Translations under genes and position numbers: made by a program
In this document: piece by piece, positions 321 through 19,516 of the stretch
How positions within the stretch are numbered: position 1 is the stretch's first letter
How the letters are laid out: each line of letters opens with the position of its first letter
Notes under the pieces: model-generated
Database searches by the model: none
The model's input: only the letters and a program-made list of their open reading frames with translations
What the model was told of the DNA's origin: nothing
Assembly (NCBI GenBank): GCA_000004985.1
Contig: GG738925.1
Strand: one strand, 5' to 3'
DNA length: 64,000 nt
DNA from: Naegleria gruberi
Taxonomy: Eukaryota

Positions 321-1059
321 ACGACTAAGGTCAGACCCAATATTTTGACTTTTATTCATCTTAATTAATTATCTCAATAAATACTCATTATAAATCAATA
401 TATTATATATCAATATACTCCAAATTGAATATATAATCATATTATAACATAATATTACATCATTATAATGACTTATATAAGTTAATTTCATATAATAGAT
501 TAGACAATTAGGATATCAATGAATACATTTCAAATTCAATTCAAATCAATATATCACATTATTAATCATGTTAACAACAATATATATCAATTTCAAATAC
601 TTTGGTATCATTTCAGGATATTTACTATTCAACTTGTCAACTGACCTATTCTAACATTGAAGGTAGAAATATATACCACTCCAATTCACTTCCAATACAT
701 ATATACATGATAATGAAATATATTAATATCATTTTGACATTCATCCATATTATACATGTTACATGGCTGATCCACTTGATACCTACAGGGATGTGACAAT
801 GACATCTACTATACAGATCATTATGAAATTGATACAGTACCTTACTAATGGTGAATAAACACAACTGTATCAGTTTCATGACAATTTGATATCATTCAAC
901 ATGTCAGGAGTGTAATCATGGGAATAATGAATATCAAGATAATCAAATCATATTAATTTTGAAATCTTTCAATTATAGCATCATATATAGATCAATTAAT
1001 CATAGTATTTCAATAATTGGTATTGACTTTCATATTAATTCATTCAAACCTTAATGACC

Positions 1060-4000
1060 NNNNNNNNNNNNNNNNNNNNNNNNNNNNNNNNNNNNNNNNN
1101 NNNNNNNNNNNNNNNNNNNNNNNNNNNNNNNNNNNNNNNNNNNNNNNNNNNNNNNNNNNNNNNNNNNNNNNNNNNNNNNNNNNNNNNNNNNNNNNNNNNN
1201 NNNNNNNNNNNNNNNNNNNNNNNNNNNNNNNNNNNNNNNNNNNNNNNNNNNNNNNNNNNNNNNNNNNNNNNNNNNNNNNNNNNNNNNNNNNNNNNNNNNN
1301 NNNNNNNNNNNNNNNNNNNNNNNNNNNNNNNNNNNNNNNNNNNNNNNNNNNNNNNNNNNNNNNNNNNNNNNNNNNNNNNNNNNNNNNNNNNNNNNNNNNN
1401 NNNNNNNNNNNNNNNNNNNNNNNNNNNNNNNNNNNNNNNNNNNNNNNNNNNNNNNNNNNNNNNNNNNNNNNNNNNNNNNNNNNNNNNNNNNNNNNNNNNN
1501 NNNNNNNNNNNNNNNNNNNNNNNNNNNNNNNNNNNNNNNNNNNNNNNNNNNNNNNNNNNNNNNNNNNNNNNNNNNNNNNNNNNNNNNNNNNNNNNNNNNN
1601 NNNNNNNNNNNNNNNNNNNNNNNNNNNNNNNNNNNNNNNNNNNNNNNNNNNNNNNNNNNNNNNNNNNNNNNNNNNNNNNNNNNNNNNNNNNNNNNNNNNN
1701 NNNNNNNNNNNNNNNNNNNNNNNNNNNNNNNNNNNNNNNNNNNNNNNNNNNNNNNNNNNNNNNNNNNNNNNNNNNNNNNNNNNNNNNNNNNNNNNNNNNN
1801 NNNNNNNNNNNNNNNNNNNNNNNNNNNNNNNNNNNNNNNNNNNNNNNNNNNNNNNNNNNNNNNNNNNNNNNNNNNNNNNNNNNNNNNNNNNNNNNNNNNN
1901 NNNNNNNNNNNNNNNNNNNNNNNNNNNNNNNNNNNNNNNNNNNNNNNNNNNNNNNNNNNNNNNNNNNNNNNNNNNNNNNNNNNNNNNNNNNNNNNNNNNN
2001 NNNNNNNNNNNNNNNNNNNNNNNNNNNNNNNNNNNNNNNNNNNNNNNNNNNNNNNNNNNNNNNNNNNNNNNNNNNNNNNNNNNNNNNNNNNNNNNNNNNN
2101 NNNNNNNNNNNNNNNNNNNNNNNNNNNNNNNNNNNNNNNNNNNNNNNNNNNNNNNNNNNNNNNNNNNNNNNNNNNNNNNNNNNNNNNNNNNNNNNNNNNN
2201 NNNNNNNNNNNNNNNNNNNNNNNNNNNNNNNNNNNNNNNNNNNNNNNNNNNNNNNNNNNNNNNNNNNNNNNNNNNNNNNNNNNNNNNNNNNNNNNNNNNN
2301 NNNNNNNNNNNNNNNNNNNNNNNNNNNNNNNNNNNNNNNNNNNNNNNNNNNNNNNNNNNNNNNNNNNNNNNNNNNNNNNNNNNNNNNNNNNNNNNNNNNN
2401 NNNNNNNNNNNNNNNNNNNNNNNNNNNNNNNNNNNNNNNNNNNNNNNNNNNNNNNNNNNNNNNNNNNNNNNNNNNNNNNNNNNNNNNNNNNNNNNNNNNN
2501 NNNNNNNNNNNNNNNNNNNNNNNNNNNNNNNNNNNNNNNNNNNNNNNNNNNNNNNNNNNNNNNNNNNNNNNNNNNNNNNNNNNNNNNNNNNNNNNNNNNN
2601 NNNNNNNNNNNNNNNNNNNNNNNNNNNNNNNNNNNNNNNNNNNNNNNNNNNNNNNNNNNNNNNNNNNNNNNNNNNNNNNNNNNNNNNNNNNNNNNNNNNN
2701 NNNNNNNNNNNNNNNNNNNNNNNNNNNNNNNNNNNNNNNNNNNNNNNNNNNNNNNNNNNNNNNNNNNNNNNNNNNNNNNNNNNNNNNNNNNNNNNNNNNN
2801 NNNNNNNNNNNNNNNNNNNNNNNNNNNNNNNNNNNNNNNNNNNNNNNNNNNNNNNNNNNNNNNNNNNNNNNNNNNNNNNNNNNNNNNNNNNNNNNNNNNN
2901 NNNNNNNNNNNNNNNNNNNNNNNNNNNNNNNNNNNNNNNNNNNNNNNNNNNNNNNNNNNNNNNNNNNNNNNNNNNNNNNNNNNNNNNNNNNNNNNNNNNN
3001 NNNNNNNNNNNNNNNNNNNNNNNNNNNNNNNNNNNNNNNNNNNNNNNNNNNNNNNNNNNNNNNNNNNNNNNNNNNNNNNNNNNNNNNNNNNNNNNNNNNN
3101 NNNNNNNNNNNNNNNNNNNNNNNNNNNNNNNNNNNNNNNNNNNNNNNNNNNNNNNNNNNNNNNNNNNNNNNNNNNNNNNNNNNNNNNNNNNNNNNNNNNN
3201 NNNNNNNNNNNNNNNNNNNNNNNNNNNNNNNNNNNNNNNNNNNNNNNNNNNNNNNNNNNNNNNNNNNNNNNNNNNNNNNNNNNNNNNNNNNNNNNNNNNN
3301 NNNNNNNNNNNNNNNNNNNNNNNNNNNNNNNNNNNNNNNNNNNNNNNNNNNNNNNNNNNNNNNNNNNNNNNNNNNNNNNNNNNNNNNNNNNNNNNNNNNN
3401 NNNNNNNNNNNNNNNNNNNNNNNNNNNNNNNNNNNNNNNNNNNNNNNNNNNNNNNNNNNNNNNNNNNNNNNNNNNNNNNNNNNNNNNNNNNNNNNNNNNN
3501 NNNNNNNNNNNNNNNNNNNNNNNNNNNNNNNNNNNNNNNNNNNNNNNNNNNNNNNNNNNNNNNNNNNNNNNNNNNNNNNNNNNNNNNNNNNNNNNNNNNN
3601 NNNNNNNNNNNNNNNNNNNNNNNNNNNNNNNNNNNNNNNNNNNNNNNNNNNNNNNNNNNNNNNNNNNNNNNNNNNNNNNNNNNNNNNNNNNNNNNNNNNN
3701 NNNNNNNNNNNNNNNNNNNNNNNNNNNNNNNNNNNNNNNNNNNNNNNNNNNNNNNNNNNNNNNNNNNNNNNNNNNNNNNNNNNNNNNNNNNNNNNNNNNN
3801 NNNNNNNNNNNNNNNNNNNNNNNNNNNNNNNNNNNNNNNNNNNNNNNNNNNNNNNNNNNNNNNNNNNNNNNNNNNNNNNNNNNNNNNNNNNNNNNNNNNN
3901 NNNNNNNNNNNNNNNNNNNNNNNNNNNNNNNNNNNNNNNNNNNNNNNNNNNNNNNNNNNNNNNNNNNNNNNNNNNNNNNNNNNNNNNNNNNNNNNNNNNN

Positions 4001-4971
4001 NNNNNNNNNNNNNNNNNNNNNNNNNNNNNNNNNNNNNNNNNNNNNNNNNNNNNNNNNNNNNNNNNNNNNNNNNNNNNNNNNNNNNNNNNNNNNNNNNNNN
4101 NNNNNNNNNNNNNNNNNNNNNNNNNNNNNNNNNNNNNNNNNNNNNNNNNNNNNNNNNNNNNNNNNNNNNNNNNNNNNNNNNNNNNNNNNNNNNNNNNNNN
4201 NNNNNNNNNNNNNNNNNNNNNNNNNNNNNNNNNNNNNNNNNNNNNNNNNNNNNNNNNNNNNNNNNNNNNNNNNNNNNNNNNNNNNNNNNNNNNNNNNNNN
4301 NNNNNNNNNNNNNNNNNNNNNNNNNNNNNNNNNNNNNNNNNNNNNNNNNNNNNNNNNNNNNNNNNNNNNNNNNNNNNNNNNNNNNNNNNNNNNNNNNNNN
4401 NNNNNNNNNNNNNNNNNNNNNNNNNNNNNNNNNNNNNNNNNNNNNNNNNNNNNNNNNNNNNNNNNNNNNNNNNNNNNNNNNNNNNNNNNNNNNNNNNNNN
4501 NNNNNNNNNNNNNNNNNNNNNNNNNNNNNNNNNNNNNNNNNNNNNNNNNNNNNNNNNNNNNNNNNNNNNNNNNNNNNNNNNNNNNNNNNNNNNNNNNNNN
4601 NNNNNNNNNNNNNNNNNNNNNNNNNNNNNNNNNNNNNNNNNNNNNNNNNNNNNNNNNNNNNNNNNNNNNNNNNNNNNNNNNNNNNNNNNNNNNNNNNNNN
4701 NNNNNNNNNNNNNNNNNNNNNNNNNNNNNNNNNNNNNNNNNNNNNNNNNNNNNNNNNNNNNNNNNNNNNNNNNNNNNNNNNNNNNNNNNNNNNNNNNNNN
4801 NNNNNNNNNNNNNNNNNNNNNNNNNNNNNNNNNNNNNNNNNNNNNNNNNNNNNNNNNNNNNNNNNNNNNNNNNNNNNNNNNNNNNNNNNNNNNNNNNNNN
4901 NNNNNNNNNNNNNNNNNNNNNNNNNNNNNNNNNNNNNNNNNNNNNNNNNNNNNNNNNNNNNNNNNNNNNNN
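1060..4971. other. Assembly gap (run of N, ~3.9 kb) in the subtelomere
   Basis: Continuous n characters. Tool ORFs 1017..4976 and 1054..5004 are artefacts of translating N. Confidence 0.99.
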
Positions 4972-5144
4972 GATAGACTATTACTTTTTTTAAAACTTTA
5001 CTAAAAAAACCAACAAAATACCCAAACGGCGCTTAATAACCCTATATCAGATCATAAAGACCATGGAGCCACAGAAGAAACAAATCAAAACAACACGTTT
5101 CCAAACCCAACCAAGTTAATAGCACAAAGAACGATGACTTCAAG

Positions 5145-7714: not shown

Positions 7715-8656
7715 TTATTGATTCATTGACTTGGAATACCCTTTCATCAAGTGACAATTAATAAAATCACTGTTAACACATTGAACTTCCAATTGAAGAC
7801 CAGCATGTCTGTAACCAGCTCCAACTGGTAGAGAGATTGGAACAATATCTTGACGAGGTCCAAGTAATTCTTTCCATTTAGTGATAACTCTAACGAAATT
7901 TGGATTAACTTGATTGGACTTAGCAGCAAAATTGGCATCTCCAACTCTTGGTTGACCAAAAGTAACAACCTTGATGGTAGCCTTTGTTTCTGGTCTTTTA
8001 CCTGATCCTAAATAATCAACAGCAGCCAATTCAGAAAGAGAACCTCCTTGACTATGTCCATAAAATCCAATTTCATTGAGTAATCCAAGAGATTTGATAG
8101 TGTCGAAAATGTTTTGACGATCAACTAAATATTCACTCAAGAATCCTGTATGAACAGCATATGCTGAACTTCCAATTTGAAAACTAGAGAAGGCTGTTTT
8201 CAAGTTATTGGCCCAGTCAACTGGATCATTCATTTGTGTTCCTTTAAAAGAAACAATTGCTGACTTGGTAGCAGAATTGAAATATACTTTACAATTGGTT
8301 GCTTTAGCAGCATTCACAAAATTCTTAACCAACTTGTATCCTTGAACTGTTGATAGTTCCTGTGATCCATAATTTGCTGCAATTTCTGCTGCCAATTTTA
8401 CATCTGTCAAAGTGACCTTGGCTTTAATTGTCTTGAGTGATTTGGAATATGGTGTAATCAATCCATTGTAAGCATAATTTGCAGGTGCAAAGATCGAAGC
8501 AATAAACTTGGCCTTCTGGCTCACTTCACCAAGCAAGCCAAGTGTCTCAGCACTCAGTGTGTTGTGGGTCTTGCTGCCGTTTACTCGAGATGGATCGCTG
8601 GTTACGATCAACAACAAGACGATCGCAAGGAGAACGGTCAAGGTCAATAATTTCAT
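7715..8656 (-). CDS. Secreted lipase class 3 (alpha/beta hydrolase) protein, 313 aa
   Basis: N-terminal signal peptide MKLLTLTVLLAIVLLLIV. Nucleophile elbow FYGHSQGGSLSELAA (GHSxG) followed by VVTFGQPRVGDANFA, typical of Lipase_3 family members. A-rich context before the ATG (aaaaaaaATG). Confidence 0.8.
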   Translation of the reverse strand: MKLLTLTVLLAIVLLLIVTSDPSRVNGSKTHNTLSAETLGLLGEVSQKAKFIASIFAPANYAYNGLITPYSKSLKTIKAKVTLTDVKLAAEIAANYGSQELSTVQGYKLVKNFVNAAKATNCKVYFNSATKSAIVSFKGTQMNDPVDWANNLKTAFSSFQIGSSAYAVHTGFLSEYLVDRQNIFDTIKSLGLLNEIGFYGHSQGGSLSELAAVDYLGSGKRPETKATIKVVTFGQPRVGDANFAAKSNQVNPNFVRVITKWKELLGPRQDIVPISLPVGAGYRHAGLQLEVQCVNSDFINCHLMKGYSKSMNQ

Positions 8657-10721: not shown

Positions 10722-12192
10722 ATGACAAGACAAGAGACAACTGACTTTGAACCCAAATTAAAGAAACTCAAGCTTTCCCAACCAAGTGTATCTCTTACCA
10801 ACCTGACCTTTGAAATATTAGCAAATATTTTTGTCTATTTGGATCCAATAACAGATTTACTGCCAAATGTCATGCCTGTAAGTGAAAAGTTTTATCATGC
10901 GTTGGGAGGAAGAGATGAATTGCAGACTAAATTCCCTTTGTATAACAGAATCATTCTCAAACGTAGATTCCCCACCAAGAGAATGCACTGTAGTGAATCT
11001 TTCCTTCTGAGATTAGTCAACTTTATTTCAAGAACATCAACAAACTGTCAAGTGTTAAAAATTGGAGAAATGGCTGAAGATGAATTTGAGGACCGCCAAG
11101 AATCTGATTATGAATTATCCATTGATTTCTTTGAGCAATCTAACAAGAGTGGCTGTTTCAGAAATTTGAAGAAATTACATGTTTATTTCACGCCATTTTT
11201 CACCACAGAATTAGAAACTGAACGAAATGTCAAAATTTTACAAGAATGGTTTTCCAATTTGAAAGATTTGGAATCATTGAATTTGAAGAATGCTTTACCA
11301 CAATCTGTCATGAATACCATTTTGAAAGAATGCAAGAATTTGAGACATTTGACTTGTTCTGGGAATAATCTTGCCCAAATCGATGCAAATATTCCAATTT
11401 TGACTAATTTAGAGTCATTAGCGCCAATTCAATCAGAGAATGACATTTCTGCCTTCTTTTCAAAAGTTCCAAATTTGAAAAAACTAGTTTTTAATGATTA
11501 TTACGAAGTAATGACATTTATTGAAATTAGAAATAATTGTAAACTTTTGAAAGAGTTTCATTTTACTGAGAGATTTGCAAATACTGATGTTTTACATACG
11601 GTAATGCAAATGAATCAATTGGAAAGGATTTCAATTTCAGAAATTGAATGGGATTATGATTCTCTTTTCCATTTCGTTTCTCAGTTTAGTTTGAAACAGT
11701 TTAAAGATTCGTATGTCTTTTCGTTTTATTTGGAAGGACAAACAGCTTGCCTAGATCATTTGGTCAACTACCTTGGAGCATGTGGATGATTTCTTCCATA
11801 CTCAAGATCATTCCAAGTATTTACAAATGTGTAAAAAGTTCAAACAAGCAAGAATTTTAAATTTAACTCAACTCGAACCTACAATGAATCATGGAATAGT
11901 TAAGGATCTGTTTGAGGAATTGGAATATTTGAGAGAAATTAGGTTAAATGCTAGTGGAGAATTCGAAAGTGATGTCATTAAGCAACTTTTTCACTACTTT
12001 GGAGAAGAAAATAAGATTAGTTCAGTTTCACTTGTTCCTATTGGAAACACCTTCACAGTCAAAATTAAAACTCAAAAGAGAGGAGATTTAACATTAAGGG
12101 TGAAAGTAGTATCAAATGATCTTCTTGGACTGGAAGATGAAGAAGAAGAGAATCGGTTTGAGGCTTCTTTCAAAATTTATGTATTCGAATAA
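10722..12192 (+). CDS. F-box / leucine-rich-repeat protein; reading frame shifts once near 11755-11789 (possible pseudogene or sequence error)
   Basis: N-terminal F-box (LTFEILANIFVYLDPITDLL) then LRR-like units (LKNLKKLHVYF, LKDLESLNLKN, CKNLRHLTCSGNNL). ORF 10722..11789 and ORF 11773..12192 overlap in different frames. The second frame opens only after a stop at ~11752 and continues the LRR-like sequence (ARILNLTQLEPT, LEYLREIRLN). No GT..AG intron reconciles the two frames: a 35-nt GTATGT..ACAG candidate gives a third, closed frame. Confidence 0.5.
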
Positions 12193-12338
12193 TTTTGAAT
12201 AAATATAATTTCTAACTTTACTGTAGATTGTTACAAAATATGTTAAGACTAAATTGGGAATTCCCTTCTCTAAATTCTTCACCATCATGTCACTTGTTAA
12301 AAACATCAATCAAACAAATCAAAAAAAATCACACAACA

Positions 12339-15122
12339 ATGCGAAGCAAACTAGAGAGTGATTCTGAACCGAAAACAACATCATCCAACAACACTACCAA
12401 TGGTACCCAAGAAGCAGAAGAACAACAGTTTGATTATGTCGAGAAGGAAATTGACGAAGATTTAATTTGTTCCATTTGTTTACTTCCTTTCGTTGATCCA
12501 ATTTCACATAATTCTGATGCATGTGGAAATACTTTCTGTTTGAAATGTGTTGAAAAGGTTTCGGATTGTCCAATGTGTAGAGAGGTTGATTTTAAGAAGA
12601 ATTGTTCTAGTGCTAAAACTATTGCCAAATTGTTGGACAAATTGAAGGTCAAGTGTGGAATGTGTAAGAACATTGTGTTGAGAGGTGAATTAAAAGTACA
12701 TCAGGAAAAGTATTGTCCTCTTCATGAAGCTTATCAACAAGTGGAAGAATTCAAGAAGAAATTGGAACAAGAATTCCAACAAAAGTCAGAAAAACTTCAA
12801 AGAGAACATGAAGAATTGATAGAAATTGTCAAAGCTGAGATGGAACAACATTTGAGAGAGGCTAAAGAGAATTTGGCAAAACTTGAAGAAAATCTTTTAC
12901 AACAATTCAAAAAGAAGGAAGAATTGTTGGAAAGTAACATGAAGGAACGTGAAAGTAGAATATTGACAAGAGAAAAACTTGAGAATAGCAACAAACCAAT
13001 TCATATAAATGTCAGAGGAACAATCATGACAGTTTCATTGGGTGATTTCATTCATAATGAAAGAGAATCTGATAATTTATTCAAGAAAATGTTCACAGGT
13101 CAACATCCATGTTATCAAACACCTTCCAAGCAATTTGATGACTCAATTTATTTCATTGATTGTGATCCAAATGTTTTCAAACATATGATTGAATGGTTAC
13201 AATATGGTGAGATTGCTGAATTGAGTAATGATATGAGACGATCAGTTTTAAATGCCTGTAAAAAGTTTGGATTGACAAATATGTCAAACGACTTATCAGA
13301 AAGTATTAACAAAGAAAGTAATTCAAAACAAATCATGCCAATGTCACAATTTGACTTTATGAACATTGTTAATCTTACCAGAAGTCAAAAGAGTGCTTTG
13401 AATTTGAGTGGCCTCGATTTACGTAAATTGGTTATTAACAATACAAATTTAGAAAAATCAGAAATTATTGGATCTGATTTCAGTGGAATGAATTTGAAAC
13501 AAACCAATTTCAAAGGAAGTAATTTGAGAGGATGTAATTTCAGTAATTGTGATTTGACAAGTGTAAACTTACAAGAGTGTGAATTAGATGATTGTAATTT
13601 CTCAAATGCAATTTTGGGTAAAACTAATTTTTCCAAATCAAGCTTGTTGAATATCAATTTATCAAATGCCATTTATAAGGAAACAAAGTTTATTGGAGCT
13701 AAATTTGAGAATGTTACAGGCTTCCAAAATAGAAAGCTCGGTTCATTAGATTTCTCCAATTCATCTTTCAAATCAATTGAGTTTTGCAATTCAGATTTGT
13801 CAAATTCAAACTTTACCAATTGTAATGCAATTGATTGTAACTTGGAAAGTACCATCTTGCGCAAAACAAACTTTGAAAAATCACAATTCGATAATTGTAG
13901 ATTCAATAACAAGTGTAAATTTGAAGAAACCAGTTTTAAAAATAGTTCCATGAAGAATGTTAGTGGTTTAATTGGAATTGATTTGGTTAGAGTTGACTTG
14001 TCCAACTGTAAATTAACCAAAACAGATTTTACAGTTTCTTATATTTTTGAAACTAATTTTCTTAATTGTAACTTTTGTATGGAAGTATTGAGATCCAAAC
14101 ACAATATTATTTCTAATTGTGATCTTTCAGGATTATTTTTAAATGGAGATTTTACAGGATTCAAATTTGAAAATGTTAAATTTACAAATACAAATATTGA
14201 GAAATCGAAGTTTGAAAATTCAACATTTGTAAAATGTAAAATTCAAATGAACTTTAAAAAGGACTCTTTACAACATTGTAATGTTATTGAATGTGATTTT
14301 AATGGCTCAATATTCGAAGAAATTGATTTTACTCTAATCCAAGCCAATTTAGAAACCAACTCTTTTAATAATTGTGTTTTTAAGAATGCAGATTTGAGAG
14401 AATTGAAAGATTTATCAAAATTCCTAGGATCTACATTTGATGCATGTTTATTTAATTTTAAAGAATTTACAAACAAACACATTCAAAAAATTCATTTCCA
14501 AAATATTAACTTACAGGATTTAGGAGGATTTAAATTTTCTGCCATTACTGTGGATATTCCTTGGTTTAATTTATTATCTTCCTCTGTTATTGTTAATAGT
14601 TGTGATATTGCAATTGGCTGTGAATTATATTCAAACACTAAAAGTAAATCAATTCCTCAATTATTATACAGAGGATCGAGAGATGGATTCAAAGCAGAAC
14701 ATTTTCATTCAAAATGTGATAATCAAGGTCCAACATTAACAATTATCAAATCAGAACACAATCAAATATTTGGCGGTTTCACATCAAAATCTTGGAGATC
14801 CCGAAGTGGAGAATGTGTCACAGATTCATCAGCATTTATTTTCAAAATTACAGATTCAAACGGAAGTTATCAATTCGAACACTTCAAAATCCAACGAGAG
14901 GAAAATGCCATTCTGGTAAACCAGTATTATTTGGCATTGTTTGGTGCTGACATTCAGATTGAGAGTGATTGTAATTTGAATTACAGGTCACGTTCAAACT
15001 TGGGCAGTTATTATGAATTACCAAAAGGTTACCAAAAGGGAAGTAATGAAGCAAATAATTACTTGGCAGGAAGTTACTACTTCAAGGTTTCAGAAATTGA
15101 AGTTTTTAAAATTAACCAATAA
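12339..15122 (+). CDS. Multidomain protein: degenerate RING + TRAF-type zinc finger + coiled coil + BTB/T1 (KCTD-like) + pentapeptide repeats + C-terminal TLDc domain (KCTD9-like architecture with extra domains)
   Basis: CSICLLPF..CGNTFCLKC..CPMCR is RING-like. VKCGMCKNIVLRGELKVHQEKYCP is a zf-TRAF-like C-x2-C..H..C pattern. IHINVRGTIMTVSLGDFIH..YFIDCDPNVFKHMIEWLQYG is a T1-type BTB. A long run of A(D/N)LxX pentapeptide repeats follows (NLRGCNFSNCDLTSVNLQECELDDCNFSNAIL...). The C-terminus LLYRGSRDGFKAEHFHSKCDNQGPTLTIIKSEHNQIFGGFTSKSWRS...SAFIFKI matches the TLDc signature. Start chosen at the ATG with a caacaATG context (12339); the tool ORF opens at 12228. Antisense ORFs 13385..14020 mirror the repeats and are rejected. 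Confidence 0.75.
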   Translation: MRSKLESDSEPKTTSSNNTTNGTQEAEEQQFDYVEKEIDEDLICSICLLPFVDPISHNSDACGNTFCLKCVEKVSDCPMCREVDFKKNCSSAKTIAKLLDKLKVKCGMCKNIVLRGELKVHQEKYCPLHEAYQQVEEFKKKLEQEFQQKSEKLQREHEELIEIVKAEMEQHLREAKENLAKLEENLLQQFKKKEELLESNMKERESRILTREKLENSNKPIHINVRGTIMTVSLGDFIHNERESDNLFKKMFTGQHPCYQTPSKQFDDSIYFIDCDPNVFKHMIEWLQYGEIAELSNDMRRSVLNACKKFGLTNMSNDLSESINKESNSKQIMPMSQFDFMNIVNLTRSQKSALNLSGLDLRKLVINNTNLEKSEIIGSDFSGMNLKQTNFKGSNLRGCNFSNCDLTSVNLQECELDDCNFSNAILGKTNFSKSSLLNINLSNAIYKETKFIGAKFENVTGFQNRKLGSLDFSNSSFKSIEFCNSDLSNSNFTNCNAIDCNLESTILRKTNFEKSQFDNCRFNNKCKFEETSFKNSSMKNVSGLIGIDLVRVDLSNCKLTKTDFTVSYIFETNFLNCNFCMEVLRSKHNIISNCDLSGLFLNGDFTGFKFENVKFTNTNIEKSKFENSTFVKCKIQMNFKKDSLQHCNVIECDFNGSIFEEIDFTLIQANLETNSFNNCVFKNADLRELKDLSKFLGSTFDACLFNFKEFTNKHIQKIHFQNINLQDLGGFKFSAITVDIPWFNLLSSSVIVNSCDIAIGCELYSNTKSKSIPQLLYRGSRDGFKAEHFHSKCDNQGPTLTIIKSEHNQIFGGFTSKSWRSRSGECVTDSSAFIFKITDSNGSYQFEHFKIQREENAILVNQYYLALFGADIQIESDCNLNYRSRSNLGSYYELPKGYQKGSNEANNYLAGSYYFKVSEIEVFKINQ

Positions 15123-15251: not shown

Positions 15252-17702
15252 TTACAATTGTTGTTCATTGACCTTTTCAATGGTGCTCAAAATATGTTTT
15301 CCGTAAGGTAACTTTTTGATCTTTTCTTGATGTGGTTTCACAGCCTCAGTAATTGTCTTTCTTTGACTGGCATCACAAGTTTCAATAATCTTTTGAATGA
15401 CATAGTTTGCAAATTGATCTTTCATCATTGCAAAGAGTGGAGTCTCTGAAATATCTCTTGATGTGATATCTCCAATGAGTTCAGTGATCATATTGTCACG
15501 TTCCTTCTTATTGGCTTGTTGGAAACATTTTTCAATAACATTGGAAGCAAACTTATTGATTGACAATTCTTGAATCTTCTTACTCAAGGCTGCAATAATC
15601 AATGACTTGAAAGTTGGTTTACCACGATCGAGAACATGTTGGACAACATAATTTCCGTATGGATCGACAACCAAAGCCAAAATATTGTCTAAAATTTCTT
15701 GCAAAATTGGGACTGTTTGACCTTCTGTACAATGTTCCAAAATACGTTGGATGACACGGCAGCCATAATTATGGATAGCTTGTTCATAAACTTTTCCTTT
15801 GAATCCATCGACAATGAATTGAATAATCTTTGGTGGTACACGTTCAATACACTTTTGAATGACGTGATTACCATTTTGATCTTGTACACACCTCATTACA
15901 TTACCCTTTAATTCACTAACAACAGTATCCTTATCATCATTATCAATAACTTCCAATGCCTTTTGAATAACTCTACAACCATAGGTTTGCAAGGTCAAGT
16001 TCAAGACATTTCCTTGTAATTCCTTTGAGAGTTTCTTCTTTTGAGGAGCATTACCAAATTCAAAGAATTTTTGGATAACATAATTACCAAACACGTCAGT
16101 CATTAATGATAAGGCATATGGTTGAATTTCCTTAAAGATTAATTCCTTTTCACTATTTGAAGCCTTTTCTAACTTTTGTTGGATGAATCTGGAACCATGT
16201 TGATCTCTTGAGAATTCCACAACATGACCAACAATATCATGAAGTTCAAACTTGCGGCCAGATCTTCCATTCTTGAATTCATCCATGAGAGGTGACATTT
16301 GAGTTTGTTGTTCACTACGTTCTGAAGTTGTATTTTGATGATTCTTTGATTTTCTTGAATGGTTATCATGTGATGCAGAGTTTCTATCACCTCTTCCTGA
16401 CTTATTGCCTCCATTAGAGTTTGGAGCCGAATTAGAGTTACTATTTACTGGTTGATTATTAACATTACCACCAGAGGTTGGTGAAGTATTAGCATTATTA
16501 ACAAGACCTCCGACCTTTTGAATATTTTGAGGAGGATAATGGTGTGATTGTGGATATTGATTTTGATGGAATTGATTAGCATATGGAACATTATTAGAGA
16601 CCATTTGTTGTTCAACCGGTATATGTGAACCTTGAGGTTGAACCATAAAAGGTTGAACATAATATGGTGGAACACCAAAATATGGTGGTGCGTTTTGAGG
16701 AGGTATTTGATTTCTCATATTATTTGGAGCATTTGTATACATTCCATCCCTCATTACTACTACCTTATTATAGTTTTGATAATATTCCATTTGTTGTTGT
16801 TGTCCATTAAACATCATTGGAGGATAATCAGCAGAACCCATCCATTGTTGTTGTTGTTGCTGATTCAAATTAACATGTTGGAATTGTTCTTGTAATTGTT
16901 CTTCCTCTTGATCCAAATCAGCGTTTTGATGATAACCGTGTTGTGGATAAGGAACCTTCCTTACATTATTTCCAATCATTTCATTGTTAGATTCATAGTA
17001 ACCTCCTCTTCCAGCTTTCTTTGGTTGAGGTTGTTGAATCTTTGGATAATGATGATGAGAGGTGGAAGACTCTTGTGGAAGAACTTGTTGAGCACCATTT
17101 GAAGTTGTGTTAAACATGACTGCTGTATCCTTATTCATTTGATTGAAGACTGGAGAAGGTGTTCTTGGAAAATCTTGTTGAATTTGATCCAAAACTGATC
17201 TTGGTTTACTCTTCTTTTCTTCACCAACAGCTCCAGGTGAGCTTGGAGGTTGAGTCTCATCCTTTCTCCAACTAGTAGTAAGAATTGGAGGTGGAAGTCT
17301 TGGATTAAGATTCTTGTGTGAATAGTAATAATCATAATATTGAGGATTAGAACGAATATAGAGCTCATTAGCATTTGTGTTTGTTGGTGTATTTGGTTGT
17401 TCATCGAGTGTTTCTTGTGGAGGAGCCGAACTACTTCTATTCATATATGAACCGTGTAATTCTGCGCCACTTGTAACAATAGATGTTAATTTCTTAATAA
17501 TAGGCGGTCTAATAGAATTACCATTGTTACCATTATTATTATTGTTATTGCCGGCAACACTTGGTGAATTATTCATAGGAAGTGAATTGTTATCCGATGA
17601 TATTCCCATGTTGTTCATCTTGTTTTCAATGATAAATTGTCTGAGTTGAGAACCTTGGTTATTTGGTTTTCCGTAATTTATATTTTGTTGATGGTCAAAC
17701 AT
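15252..17702 (-). CDS. Pumilio-family (PUF) RNA-binding protein, 816 aa
   Basis: C-terminal eight PUF repeats with canonical cores: [84 protein letters not shown]. The N-terminal two-thirds is N/Q/P-rich low complexity ([17 protein letters not shown]). Confidence 0.9.
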
Positions 17703-18634: not shown

Positions 18635-19516
18635 ATGTCATTACGGGATACCTTGCTTGAACAGATCAGAAGTAGACGAACACTCGTAGAACAAGGAGAA
18701 AAGAGTATTTTGGAAACGCCCATCTTTCATGGAATAACGTCCAATGGTTTAATGGTGCATTTCACTCAATTTTTCAACAATGATTTGTGTAGTGATTTTA
18801 AATTAATATTAAAGAGGAAAGATCCATCTCAGGTGAATGAATTGGATGCTTATGGAAATAGAAAGTTGAATGTAATTTATGCTCATAAATTTGTGTTGGC
18901 ACAATCAGAGTGGTTCAGAACAATATTTGAGAGTAACATGATGGAACAATTAACGAATGAATTGATCGTGGATGAGAATGAGGAAAATTTGGATACATTT
19001 ACTGCCATGATTGCAATGATGTATGGCAATTATGTTCCATCATTTTCAAGTTTAAATTCTACTCTGGTGATAGATCTTTTAGTTTGCTTTGACAAGTATC
19101 AGGCAACTCAGCTATTTGATAGGGTAATTGCTGGGCTCGTTAAAAACTTGGCACGTGATACACCCAATTATAGATCAGTTAACTTGTTGCACATCTTTTC
19201 AATGTTTGGAGATCGAACCAAATCCAAAGAATTACATGCCTCAATTCTAACACTACTTGTTACACCTCTTTGGACGAAAGGTGTACGAGTTTTGAGACCT
19301 GAAGTTTTCAGTAATGATGAGTTTATGGATTTTTTCAACAAGCAAGATTTCAACTCGTGTTACTTCTTTTTGGAAGAATTTGTGAGAGCCACTCATGCCT
19401 TCGATCTTATTTGTCAATCTATTGATAATTGGATTAAATTTGATGAGGCAGATCGATTTGATAAAGGATTTTTATTGTACAGAGTAGCTCTGAATGCTCA
19501 CAAGTTAATTAGATAA
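18635..19516 (+). CDS. BTB/POZ domain protein, 293 aa
   Basis: SDFKLILKR..LNVIYAHKFVLAQSEWFRTIFES...LIVDENEENLDTFTAMIAMMYG matches BTB fold hallmarks. caaaaaaaATG start context. Confidence 0.65.
   Translation: MSLRDTLLEQIRSRRTLVEQGEKSILETPIFHGITSNGLMVHFTQFFNNDLCSDFKLILKRKDPSQVNELDAYGNRKLNVIYAHKFVLAQSEWFRTIFESNMMEQLTNELIVDENEENLDTFTAMIAMMYGNYVPSFSSLNSTLVIDLLVCFDKYQATQLFDRVIAGLVKNLARDTPNYRSVNLLHIFSMFGDRTKSKELHASILTLLVTPLWTKGVRVLRPEVFSNDEFMDFFNKQDFNSCYFFLEEFVRATHAFDLICQSIDNWIKFDEADRFDKGFLLYRVALNAHKLIR

What the first reader, a model, noticed from the sequence alone, without database searches (positions are those of the whole stretch)
12339..15122. RING/zf-TRAF + BTB(T1) + pentapeptide-repeat + TLDc protein: a KCTD9-like core with E3-ligase and TLDc additions
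BTB plus pentapeptide repeats matches the domain organisation I recall for metazoan KCTD9, a Cullin-3 adaptor. Here it is preceded by a degenerate RING, a TRAF-type zinc finger and a coiled coil, and followed by a clear TLDc domain of the kind found in OXR1/NCOA7/TBC1D24. I am not aware of this five-domain combination being described.
Basis: partly seen in the sequence, partly recalled or inferred. Interest (0 to 1): 0.6.

Follow-up and report, generated by a model that had tools for sequence, protein, structure and literature searches.

The report
Naegleria RING–BTB–pentapeptide–TLDc modular protein
This is a real, intact gene of the amoeba Naegleria gruberi whose protein joins two ubiquitin-ligase-type modules (a TRAF/LNX-like RING with zinc finger, and a KCTD-type BTB) through a long pentapeptide-repeat rod to a TLDc domain. 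It belongs to a small, unstudied amoeba-specific gene family and is a curiosity rather than a new kind of system.

Summary
Window 12339..15122 (+) is an uninterrupted 927-codon ORF, identical to the N. gruberi predicted protein NAEGRDRAFT_82104 (XP_002669511.1, UniProt D2W263).

- RING plus CCHC zinc finger: PDB LNX2 E=1.3e-14. The model has pLDDT 90 and superposes on LNX1, LNX2 and TRAF6 RING-ZF1 at TM 0.7-0.8.
- An 87-residue helix (coiled coil).
- KCTD/T1-type BTB: family profile against KCTD1 gives 3e-8.
- About 380 aa of pentapeptide beta-helix: Pfam 5e-38.
- TLDc: Pfam 2.6e-25, with a fold match to NCOA7, Oxr2 and mEAK7.

The "KCTD9-like core" reading is only partly right. There is no KHA domain, and the BTB is no closer to KCTD9 than to other KCTDs.

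The gene is one of at least 12 N. gruberi paralogues. Relatives occur in N. fowleri, N. lovaniensis and Willaertia. Across the family the same modules are shuffled: RING-ZnF-TLDc, BTB-TLDc, a PRP spacer of 36-611 aa, and one member with a weak RGS-like match instead of TLDc.

All family RINGs lack the canonical His ligand but carry an invariant His just before Cys3.

Best reading: an oligomeric TRAF/TRIM-like E3 scaffold with TLDc as the target-binding head. The function is inferred, not shown. No literature was found on it.

The parts
12339..15122 (+). Complete single-exon CDS, 927 aa plus TAA. It is NAEGRDRAFT_82104 / XP_002669511.1 / D2W263.
12339..12449 (+). Low-complexity N-terminal tail, aa 1-37. 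Predicted disordered and poorly conserved.
   Evidence: pLDDT 24-29; 19-37% identity to paralogues
12450..12590 (+). Variant RING finger, aa 38-84. Invariant residues are C44, C47, H57, C62, C67, C70, C77 and C80. Asn64 sits where the canonical His ligand would be. The E2-contact-type residues I46, P78 and R81 are present.
12591..12728 (+). TRAF/LNX-type CCHC zinc finger packed on the RING, aa 85-130. The ligands are C106, C109, H121 and C126.
   Evidence: Aligned to the LNX2 C-terminal Zn finger. The fold matches LNX1/2 and TRAF6 RING-ZF1. The ligands are invariant except in the P0074 cluster (N. fowleri/N. lovaniensis RING-ZnF-TLDc proteins), where Tyr replaces the first Cys. Pfam zf-TRAF was not significant here.
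12729..12983 (+). Long single alpha-helix, aa about 129-215. Presumed coiled coil.
   Evidence: AF2 helix 129-215, pLDDT 71-76. The only Pfam hits are spurious coiled-coil ones.
12984..13328 (+). KCTD/T1-type BTB domain, aa 216-330.
   Evidence: pLDDT 79-89
13401..14543 (+). Pentapeptide-repeat right-handed beta-helix, aa about 355-735, about 75 pentapeptides. There is a low-confidence interruption at aa 544-588. Net charge is 0.
14544..14651 (+). Flexible linker between the beta-helix and TLDc, aa 736-771.
   Evidence: pLDDT below 50 for aa 740-771; 12-37% identity among paralogues
14652..15119 (+). TLDc domain, aa 772-927.

Best explanation
The gene encodes a modular, probably oligomeric ubiquitin-ligase-type scaffold. 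It is built on the same logic as TRAF (RING-ZnF-coiled coil-MATH) and TRIM (RING-B-box-coiled coil-SPRY) proteins.

Shown here: the N-terminal RING plus CCHC zinc finger is a true homologue of the LNX1/2 and TRAF6 RING-ZF1 unit. It is followed by a long helix, a KCTD-type BTB, a roughly 380-residue uncharged pentapeptide beta-helix, a disordered 30-residue linker and a TLDc domain.

Inferred:
- The RING-ZnF recruits an E2~ubiquitin. The lost canonical His ligand (Asn64) is replaced by the invariant His57 upstream of Cys3.
- The coiled coil and BTB multimerise the protein. KCTD BTBs are typically pentamers and may or may not bind cullin-3.
- The pentapeptide helix is a rigid spacer of evolutionarily adjustable length.
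- The TLDc domain at the tip is the target-binding head. In animals and yeast the documented partner of TLDc domains is the V-ATPase V1 sector, so V-ATPase or V-ATPase-bearing membranes are the most concrete candidate target.

The gene is one paralogue of a lineage-specific family in Naegleria and Willaertia that has expanded and shuffled its modules.
For: Architecture:
- Pfam for pentapeptide and TLD.
- LNX2 5din E=1.3e-14 over RING+ZnF.
- N-terminal model with pLDDT 90.4 matching LNX1/LNX2 (TMq 0.77-0.80) and TRAF6-Ubc13 complexes (TM about 0.71).
- BTB profile against the KCTD family.
- TLDc profile and fold against Skywalker, mEAK7, NCOA7 and Oxr2.

RING likely under functional constraint:
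- Seven Cys plus His57 are invariant in 20 or more family sequences, while the canonical His position is N, Q, M or Y.
- Ile46, Pro78 and Arg81 (R/K in several paralogues, but G, N or H in others) occupy positions that contact the E2 in RING E3s. This is inspection plus general RING knowledge.
- Ligand substitution has precedent in this clade: LNX has Asp at ligand 8, CP(L/M)D.
- RING, ZnF, BTB and TLDc are conserved at least as well as the rest; coiled coil, linker and N-terminal tail are the least conserved, and the PRP is comparably conserved among close paralogues.

Modular 'scaffold plus head' logic (local domain HMMs, names, Pfam). Family members include:
- RING-ZnF-TLDc.
- RING-ZnF-BTB-TLDc.
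- BTB-TLDc.
- RING-ZnF-CC-BTB-PRP without TLDc.
- RING-ZnF-BTB-PRP with a weak RGS-like match.

Spacer role for the PRP:
- The BTB-to-TLDc distance ranges from 36 to 611 aa across the family.
- The PRP net charge is 0, unlike acidic DNA mimics.
- The PRP-TLDc junction is predicted flexible.

Background from papers:
- All five mammalian TLDc proteins associated with the V-ATPase; the isolated TLDc domains of Ncoa7, Oxr1 and Tldc2 did, those of Tbc1d24 and Tldc1 did not (PMC8608904).
- PDB 7u8o and 7uzg show TLDc on V-ATPase.
- KCTD BTBs oligomerise, and many bind Cul3 at 5:5 stoichiometry (PMC5664961).
Against: - No biochemical, expression or localisation data exist for this or any family member.
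- The canonical His zinc ligand is missing, so the RING could be inactive. The His57 substitution is inference from conservation only.
- RING Pfam scores are below threshold.
- Having both a RING and a BTB raises the question of which, if either, supplies ligase activity.
- The TLDc domain belongs to a divergent, very large subfamily (4,889 hits, about 45% identical, mostly unannotated metagenome proteins). No member of that subfamily has been tested for V-ATPase binding.
- Only the N-terminal half of the TLDc domain aligns by sequence to characterised TLDc domains. The NCOA7 Ser817 equivalent is Lys785.
- The oligomeric preferences of a TRAF-like coiled coil and a pentameric BTB may conflict.
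Confidence: 0.5

Rival explanations
1. Cullin-3 substrate adaptor with a pseudo-RING. The BTB recruits Cul3-Rbx1, as in KCTD5, KCTD9 and KCTD17. The His-less RING-ZnF is catalytically dead and serves only as a dimerisation or partner-binding module, like BARD1, MDMX or PCGF RINGs. TLDc and PRP bind the substrate.
For: - The BTB is KCTD-type.
- Many KCTDs bind Cul3 with nM affinity despite lacking a 3-box (PMC5664961).
- The canonical His ligand is lost in all family RINGs.
- The best Pfam RING hit of paralogue P0007 is the BARD1-type zf-RING_6.
- BTB-TLDc members without any RING exist: P0077, P0079, P0100.
Against: - Some KCTDs do not bind Cul3: KCTD16 in PMC5664961, and KCTD1, the best-scoring BTB match here, from my memory. 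Binding therefore cannot be read from sequence.
- The RING keeps seven Cys, an invariant substitute His and E2-contact-type residues.
- RING-ZnF-TLDc members without any BTB also exist (the P0074 cluster in N. fowleri and N. lovaniensis). So the RING unit alone is paired with TLDc.
Confidence: 0.2
2. Non-catalytic V-ATPase or organelle regulator. The TLDc domain binds V1 as in Oxr1, NCOA7 or mEAK7 and modulates assembly. The RING, coiled coil, BTB and PRP only provide multivalency and reach. No ubiquitin transfer is involved.
For: - The TLDc fold matches V-ATPase-bound NCOA7B (7uzg) and mEAK7 (7u8o).
- The equivalents of the conserved NCOA7 glycines G815 and G845 are present: G783, and G812/G813 (with PMC8608904).
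Against: - Strong conservation of all RING and ZnF metal ligands across paralogues is hard to explain for a pure spacer.
- This TLDc subfamily is divergent, and V-ATPase binding is untested for it.
- A family member with a weak RGS-like match in place of TLDc keeps the same front end. That points to a generic scaffold rather than a V-ATPase-specific machine.
Confidence: 0.12
3. Pentapeptide-centred function. The beta-helix acts as a DNA mimic or topoisomerase-type inhibitor, as in Qnr, MfpA or AlbG. The other domains are accessory.
For: The best structural matches of the central region are Qnr, MfpA and AlbG-type helices.
Against: - The PRP region has net charge 0 rather than the strongly acidic surface of DNA mimics.
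- Its length varies from absent to about 575 aa among paralogues with otherwise conserved ends.
- Eukaryotic cytosolic RING/BTB context.
Confidence: 0.03
4. Annotation or assembly artefact. Two or more neighbouring genes (an E3-type gene and a TLDc gene) are read through as one ORF, or the locus is a decaying pseudogene.
For: - There is no transcript evidence available to me.
- Several paralogous gene models are clearly truncated: P0003 starts inside the RING, and P0069 and P0070 are fragments.
Against: - The ORF is 2,781 nt without a stop in a 31% GC genome.
- The identical module order occurs in N. gruberi paralogues, in single-exon N. fowleri FDP41_001763 and in independent metagenome contigs (P0006, P0009, P0075).
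- All domains keep their conserved core residues.
Confidence: 0.02

Closest known systems
KCTD9 (metazoan Cul3 adaptor: KHA/ubiquitin-like domain, T1-type BTB, pentapeptide beta-solenoid)
   Same: A T1/KCTD-type BTB is followed almost directly by a pentapeptide-repeat right-handed beta-helix. This juxtaposition is the one described for KCTD9 in PMC9658877. The BTB profile hits the KCTD9 BTB 5bxh at 1.5e-5.
   Different: - No KHA domain; the N-terminus is RING-ZnF-coiled coil instead.
- The PRP is about twice as long (about 380 aa against about 180 aa).
- There is an extra C-terminal TLDc.
- The BTB scores better against KCTD1 and KCTD15 than against KCTD9, so there is no evidence of specific orthology.
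- Cul3 binding is untested.
LNX1/LNX2 Zn-RING-Zn and TRAF6/TRAF5 RING-ZF1 units
   Same: - Sequence homology over RING plus the following CCHC finger: LNX2 1.3e-14, LNX1 7.7e-11.
- The model superposes at rmsd 1.8-2.3 A, TM 0.7-0.8.
- A coiled coil follows, as in TRAFs.
- The only non-family hit of the N-terminal profile in 5.8 billion proteins is a genuine RING-zfTRAF-MATH protein, P0345.
   Different: - Ligand 4 His is replaced by Asn, with an invariant His shifted upstream of Cys3.
- Ligand 8 is Cys, where LNX has Asp.
- There is only one TRAF-type finger, and no MATH or PDZ domains.
- Pfam zf-TRAF is not significant for this protein.
TLDc proteins (OXR1, NCOA7, TBC1D24/Skywalker, mEAK7/TLDC1, TLDC2; yeast Oxr1p/Rtc5p)
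   Same: - Pfam TLD is well above threshold (89.7 bits against 24.5).
- Fold match at TMt 0.62-0.68.
- The core motif around G783 and G812/G813 is conserved.
   Different: - It belongs to a divergent, highly expanded subfamily mostly seen in protist and metagenome data. Members can carry 2-8 TLDc copies per protein.
- The C-terminal half is not alignable by sequence to characterised TLDc domains.
- It is fused to RING, BTB and PRP modules rather than TBC, LysM, GRAM or a myristoylated N-terminus.
- V-ATPase binding is unknown.
TRIM / TRAF / MATH-BTB style lineage-expanded E3 families
   Same: An N-terminal RING and/or BTB plus coiled-coil oligomerisation module, with a C-terminal exchangeable recognition domain. 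Lineage-specific expansion with domain shuffling and local gene clusters.
   Different: No B-box, SPRY or MATH domain. The recognition head is TLDc and is held on a pentapeptide beta-helix. No such family has been described, as far as my searches show.

Membership tests
KCTD9 orthologue group | N-terminal KHA (ubiquitin-like) domain before the BTB | tested here: not met
   No KHA hit at E<=1. The N-terminus is RING-ZnF-coiled coil.
KCTD9 orthologue group | T1/KCTD-type BTB directly followed by a pentapeptide beta-solenoid | tested here: met
KCTD9 orthologue group | BTB specifically closest to KCTD9 among the KCTDs | tested here: not met
   Profile against PDB: KCTD1 3.1e-8, KCTD15 7e-8, KCTD9 1.5e-5. 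No phylogeny was done.
KCTD9 orthologue group | Binds cullin-3 (5:5 complex) | not testable with these tools
   Needs ITC, pull-down or multimer modelling. PMC5664961 shows that Cul3 binding varies among KCTDs.
RING-type E3 ligase (C3HC4 cross-brace) | Eight zinc ligands in canonical C3HC4 order | tested here: not met
   Ligand 4 is Asn64 (N, Q, M or Y in relatives). Seven Cys plus an upstream His57 are invariant.
RING-type E3 ligase (C3HC4 cross-brace) | Homology and fold of a bona fide RING domain | tested here: met
   LNX2 1.3e-14, TRIM21 6.5e-9. Model pLDDT 90.4. LNX1, TRAF6 and TRIM21 RING matches.
RING-type E3 ligase (C3HC4 cross-brace) | E2-dependent ubiquitin transfer | not testable with these tools
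   Biochemical assay required.
TRAF family | RING followed by TRAF-type zinc finger(s) and a coiled coil | tested here: met
   Fold match to TRAF6/TRAF5 RING-ZF1. Helix 129-215. Pfam zf-TRAF itself is only marginal, E about 0.1 in the orthologue P0004.
TRAF family | C-terminal MATH/TRAF-C domain | tested here: not met
   No MATH hit. The C-terminus is PRP plus TLDc.
Pentapeptide repeat proteins | Tandem A(D/N)LXX-type pentapeptides forming a right-handed quadrilateral beta-helix | tested here: met
   Pfam PF00805 128.7 bits, 7 stretches. Register seen. AF2 pLDDT about 90 for aa 380-530. Foldseek matches to HetL, Qnr and MfpA.
TLDc domain family | Match to the Pfam TLD model above the gathering score, and the TLDc fold | tested here: met
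   89.7 bits against a 24.5 cut-off. NCOA7, Oxr2 and mEAK7 fold matches.
TLDc domain family | Binding to the V-ATPase V1 sector (shown for OXR1, NCOA7, TLDC2, mEAK7 and yeast Oxr1p) | not testable with these tools
   Only partial residue comparison was possible. The equivalents of G815 and G845 are conserved; the equivalent of S817 is Lys (with PMC8608904).

The most novel reading that the evidence does not exclude
In vahlkampfiid amoebae the TLDc domain has been recruited as the interchangeable target-recognition head of a lineage-expanded, TRAF/TRIM-like family of oligomeric E3 ligases. These ligases use a previously undescribed 'His-shifted' RING (C2-H-C5 ligand order) and a pentapeptide beta-helix as a molecular ruler. 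If the TLDc head retains the V-ATPase affinity of OXR1, NCOA7 and mEAK7, these would be ubiquitin ligases hard-wired to the V-ATPase. That would give a direct handle on how V-ATPase or acidic organelles are regulated by ubiquitination, and on what TLDc domains recognise in general.
Probability: 0.15. Interest if true: 0.6.

Novelty: new variant of a known kind. Interest (0 to 1): 0.35.

Why it matters
TLDc domains are disease-linked through OXR1, NCOA7 and TBC1D24, yet their molecular role is only now being tied to V-ATPase binding.

Here TLDc is repeatedly fused behind RING and/or BTB ubiquitin-ligase modules in a free-living relative of the pathogen N. fowleri. That is a natural 'Rosetta-stone' hint that TLDc can act as a targeting or recognition domain in ubiquitin pathways.

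The family also offers two further points of interest:
- A naturally permuted RING ligand set, useful for RING structural biology.
- A rare eukaryotic use of pentapeptide beta-helices as variable-length spacers.

None of this is shown functionally. On present evidence it is an uncharacterised lineage-specific domain shuffle, which is common in protist genomes.

Tried and rejected
- Pfam alone does not support RING, zf-TRAF or BTB in this protein. All are below the cut-offs, and zf-TRAF is absent at E<=1. This was resolved with PDB sequence and profile searches and with structure models.
- The full-length AF2 model gave a poor RING (pLDDT 41-55). Re-modelling aa 30-139 alone gave pLDDT 90.
- Synteny with N. 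fowleri: the neighbours of FDP41_001763 differ from the window's neighbours. One-to-one orthology is therefore not established.
- Literature:
  - No paper combines TLDc with pentapeptide repeats, or with Naegleria.
  - No paper cites any accession of the protein.
  - The TLDc+BTB hits are incidental co-mentions.
  - One broad protist search was uninformative.
- The Foldseek afdb50 library was unavailable, so no structure-based search for the same architecture in other taxa was possible.
- The DNA-mimic idea for the PRP was rejected on charge and length variability.
- The fusion-artefact idea was rejected on conservation of the architecture in independent assemblies.
- The weak V-ATPase_G Pfam hit in the helix is treated as coiled-coil noise. 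It sits alongside Apolipoprotein, Zw10 and Exonuc_VII_L hits on the same segment.
- The organism of the RING-BTB-PRP metagenome contig (L002) was not identified.
Full report
**What is there**

The window is Naegleria gruberi nuclear DNA. The ORF from ATG 12339 to TAA 15120-15122 on the + strand has 927 codons with no internal stop. It is 100% identical over its full length to the NCBI predicted protein XP_002669511.1 / EFC36767.1, locus NAEGRDRAFT_82104, UniProt D2W263. At about 31% GC a stop-free run of this length is not a chance event; my arithmetic gives roughly 1e-33. An in-frame ATG exists at 12240. However, the paralogues have N-terminal tails of the same length as the 12339 start gives, so the annotated start is reasonable. 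The gene needs no intron.

**Domain by domain**

*RING and zinc finger, aa 38-130.*
- Pfam gives only sub-threshold RING hits and no zf-TRAF hit.
- phmmer against PDB sequences aligns aa 29-127 to the LNX2 Zn-RING-Zn structure 5din at E=1.3e-14 and to LNX1 at 7.7e-11. TRIM21 RING follows at 6.5e-9.
- An AF2 model of aa 30-139, built with nine family sequences, is confident: pLDDT 90.4, pTM 0.75.
- That model superposes on LNX1 5h7r (TMq 0.80, rmsd 1.9 A), LNX2 5din, and TRAF6/TRAF5 RING-ZF1 including the TRAF6-Ubc13 complexes (TM about 0.71, rmsd 2.0-2.3 A).
- 'RING + TRAF-type zinc finger' is therefore correct structurally. The finger ligands are C106, C109, H121 and C126.
- 'Degenerate' is also correct. 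The fourth ligand, His in CGHxFC of LNX, TRAF and TRIM, is Asn64 (CGNTFC).

*Coiled coil.* AF2 predicts one helix spanning aa 129-215.

*BTB, aa 216-330.*
- Pfam BTB_2 scores 18.4 bits here, below the 21.4 cut-off. It scores 22.5-30.9 bits in paralogues.
- A profile of eight family BTBs hits KCTD1 (3.1e-8), KCTD15, KCTD9 (1.5e-5), and KCTD17, 16, 5 and 7. It hits only weakly on Kv T1 domains and SPOP.
- It is therefore a KCTD/T1-type BTB.

*Pentapeptide repeats, aa about 355-735.*
- Pfam E=4.8e-38, with visible five-residue register.
- AF2 beta-helix with pLDDT about 90 for aa 380-530, then an interruption at 544-588.
- Foldseek matches HetL, Qnr, AlbG and MfpA.

*TLDc, aa 772-927.*
- Pfam E=2.6e-25.
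- Profile hits to Skywalker/TBC1D24, mEAK7, Oxr2 and NCOA7.
- Fold matches to NCOA7, Oxr2 and V-ATPase-bound NCOA7B and mEAK7 at TMt 0.62-0.68.

No rigid interface is predicted.

**Not a merged gene**

The same module order is found in several independent single ORFs:
- N. gruberi paralogues P0002 and P0003.
- N. fowleri FDP41_001763 (P0004, 1099 aa, 97% query coverage), which is a single uninterrupted 3.3-kb gene.
- Metagenome-derived ORFs from independent assemblies: P0006, P0009 and P0075.

**A shuffled multigene family**

I searched the full protein against 1.84 billion representatives and classified the hits with domain HMMs built from the family alignment. This shows a module kit:
- RING-ZnF-CC-BTB-PRP-TLDc: the window gene, P0002, P0003, P0004, P0006, P0009, P0075.
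- RING-ZnF-BTB-TLDc: N. gruberi NAEGRDRAFT_74355; Willaertia magna ABK040_001416 and ABK040_001432.
- RING-ZnF-TLDc: a cluster in N. fowleri and N. lovaniensis.
- BTB-TLDc: NAEGRDRAFT_69463 and NAEGRDRAFT_75851.
- BTB-PRP-TLDc.
- RING-ZnF-CC-BTB-PRP without TLDc: NAEGRDRAFT_71501.
- RING-ZnF-BTB-PRP with a weak RGS-like match (Pfam RGS E=0.0012, below cut-off): NAEGRDRAFT_59210.

These assignments rest. Further points:
- Every named member is from Naegleria or Willaertia (Vahlkampfiidae).
- The N-terminal profile found nothing else in 5.8 billion proteins except one genuine RING-zfTRAF-MATH protein at 5e-5.
- In N. fowleri several members lie on one contig: FDP41_001763, 1771, 1772, 1796, 1798 and 1807.
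- A RING-TRAF ZnF-CC-BTB-PRP protein without TLDc (P0019) occurs as three tandem genes on an unidentified eukaryotic metagenome contig. The RING-BTB-PRP core is therefore not unique to Naegleria.
- BTB-TLDc repeats also occur in Planoprotostelium, and multi-TLDc proteins in Anaeramoeba.
- The TLDc subtype itself is very abundant in metagenomes: 4,889 hits at about 45% identity.

**The RING variant**

In all 20 or more family RINGs, the canonical His position is N, Q, M or Y. A His located 1-4 residues before Cys3 (His57 here) is invariant, as are the seven cysteines. The simplest reading is that His57 has taken over as the eighth zinc ligand; this is inference. Ligand variation has precedent in the clade: LNX1/2 use Asp at ligand 8, CP(L/M)D, where the family has Cys. 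Ile46, Pro78 and Arg81 occupy positions that contact the E2 or act as the linchpin in other RING E3s. This last point rests on general knowledge and has not been tested.

**Mechanism (inferred)**

The layout parallels TRAF and TRIM ligases. It has an N-terminal E2-recruiting RING(-ZnF), oligomerisation through a coiled coil and BTB, and a C-terminal recognition domain.
- KCTD BTBs are usually pentamers, and many bind Cul3 (PMC5664961).
- The PRP looks like a spacer. The BTB-to-TLDc distance varies from 36 to 611 aa across the family while the end domains are conserved. The PRP is uncharged, unlike DNA-mimic PRPs.
- TLDc sits where a substrate-binding head would. In mammals all five TLDc proteins associate with V-ATPase, though only some isolated TLDc domains bind it directly (PMC8608904; PDB 7u8o and 7uzg). 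The equivalents of NCOA7 G815 and G845 are conserved here (G783, G812/G813), but S817 corresponds to Lys785.
- V-ATPase is therefore the most concrete candidate target, at low confidence.

Rival readings are given in the rival-explanations section: a Cul3 adaptor with a pseudo-RING, a non-catalytic V-ATPase regulator, a DNA mimic, and an annotation artefact.

**Comparison and novelty**

It works like a TRAF/TRIM-type modular E3 and shares the BTB-PRP juxtaposition of KCTD9 (PMC9658877). It fails KCTD9 membership because it has no KHA domain and no specific BTB affinity. It fails TRAF membership because it has no MATH domain. All parts are known domains. The combination, the His-shifted RING and the family have not been described in the literature I could search, although the protein has been in the databases as a 'predicted protein'. 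I rate it a new variant of a known kind, with moderate-to-low interest (0.35). It is a useful hypothesis generator for TLDc biology, but lineage-specific domain shuffles are common in protists and nothing functional is shown.

Noticed in passing
window 1060-4971: A run of N (assembly gap) of about 3.9 kb. The long mechanical ORFs listed at 1017-5004 are artefacts of it.
   Followed up: no
window 10722-12192 (+): The upstream LRR-containing gene is split into two overlapping ORFs in different frames (10722-11789 and 11773-12192). The frame change lies near 11770-11790. There is no obvious GT..AG intron in the few bases concerned. It could be a sequencing frameshift, a tiny intron or a pseudogene.
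   Followed up: partly
window 15252-17702 (-): A Pumilio-family gene (816 aa, 8 PUF repeats, E=2e-79) with a long Q/N-rich N-terminus. It is convergent with the finding; the two stop codons are about 130 bp apart.
   Followed up: partly
window 18635-19516 (+) and 7715-8656 (-): A separate 293-aa BTB/POZ (PF00651-type) protein two genes downstream, unrelated to the KCTD-type BTB of the finding. There is also a class-3 lipase upstream.
   Followed up: no
window 13385-13672 (-) and 13673-14020 (-): Antisense ORFs of 95 and 115 aa inside the pentapeptide-repeat region. They are leucine- and lysine-rich mirror images of the repeat and weakly hit the PRP HMM. They are most likely mechanical by-products of the repeat, not genes.
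   Followed up: partly
L001 (N. fowleri VFQX01000027.1, 596860-620159) and the rest of that 731-kb contig: At least six family members (FDP41_001763, 1771, 1772, 1796, 1798, 1807) lie within about 45 gene models on one N. fowleri contig. This suggests local tandem expansion. The N. gruberi paralogues are on different scaffolds.
   Followed up: partly
L002 1007-8217 (ENA ERZ25074310 ctg10751) and L003: Three tandem genes encoding RING-BTB-pentapeptide proteins (778, 820 and 738 aa, no TLDc) on a contig from an unidentified eukaryote. One of them has canonical C3HC4 RING and TRAF-like fingers.
   Followed up: partly
P0220 = NAEGRDRAFT_59210 (N. gruberi, 1165 aa): It has the same RING-ZnF-BTB-PRP front end, but the C-terminal region has a weak RGS-domain hit (E=0.0012, below cut-off) instead of TLDc. 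This hints at head swapping in the family.
   Followed up: partly
proteins P0068, P0071, P0084, P0202 and the hits: The TLDc subtype found here is extremely abundant in metagenomes (4,889 hits at E<=1e-5 among 8,000 candidates). It occurs in proteins with 2-8 tandem TLDc domains, for example Anaeramoeba ignava M0811_02672 with a kinase annotation. It also occurs as alternating BTB-TLDc repeats in Planoprotostelium PROFUN_02035.
   Followed up: partly
paralogue gene models P0003, P0005, P0069, P0070: Several N. gruberi paralogue models look truncated. P0003 starts in the middle of the RING. P0005 starts inside the BTB. P0069 and P0070 are fragments, with P0070 on a 7.5-kb scaffold. The public annotation of this family probably needs repair.
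   Followed up: no
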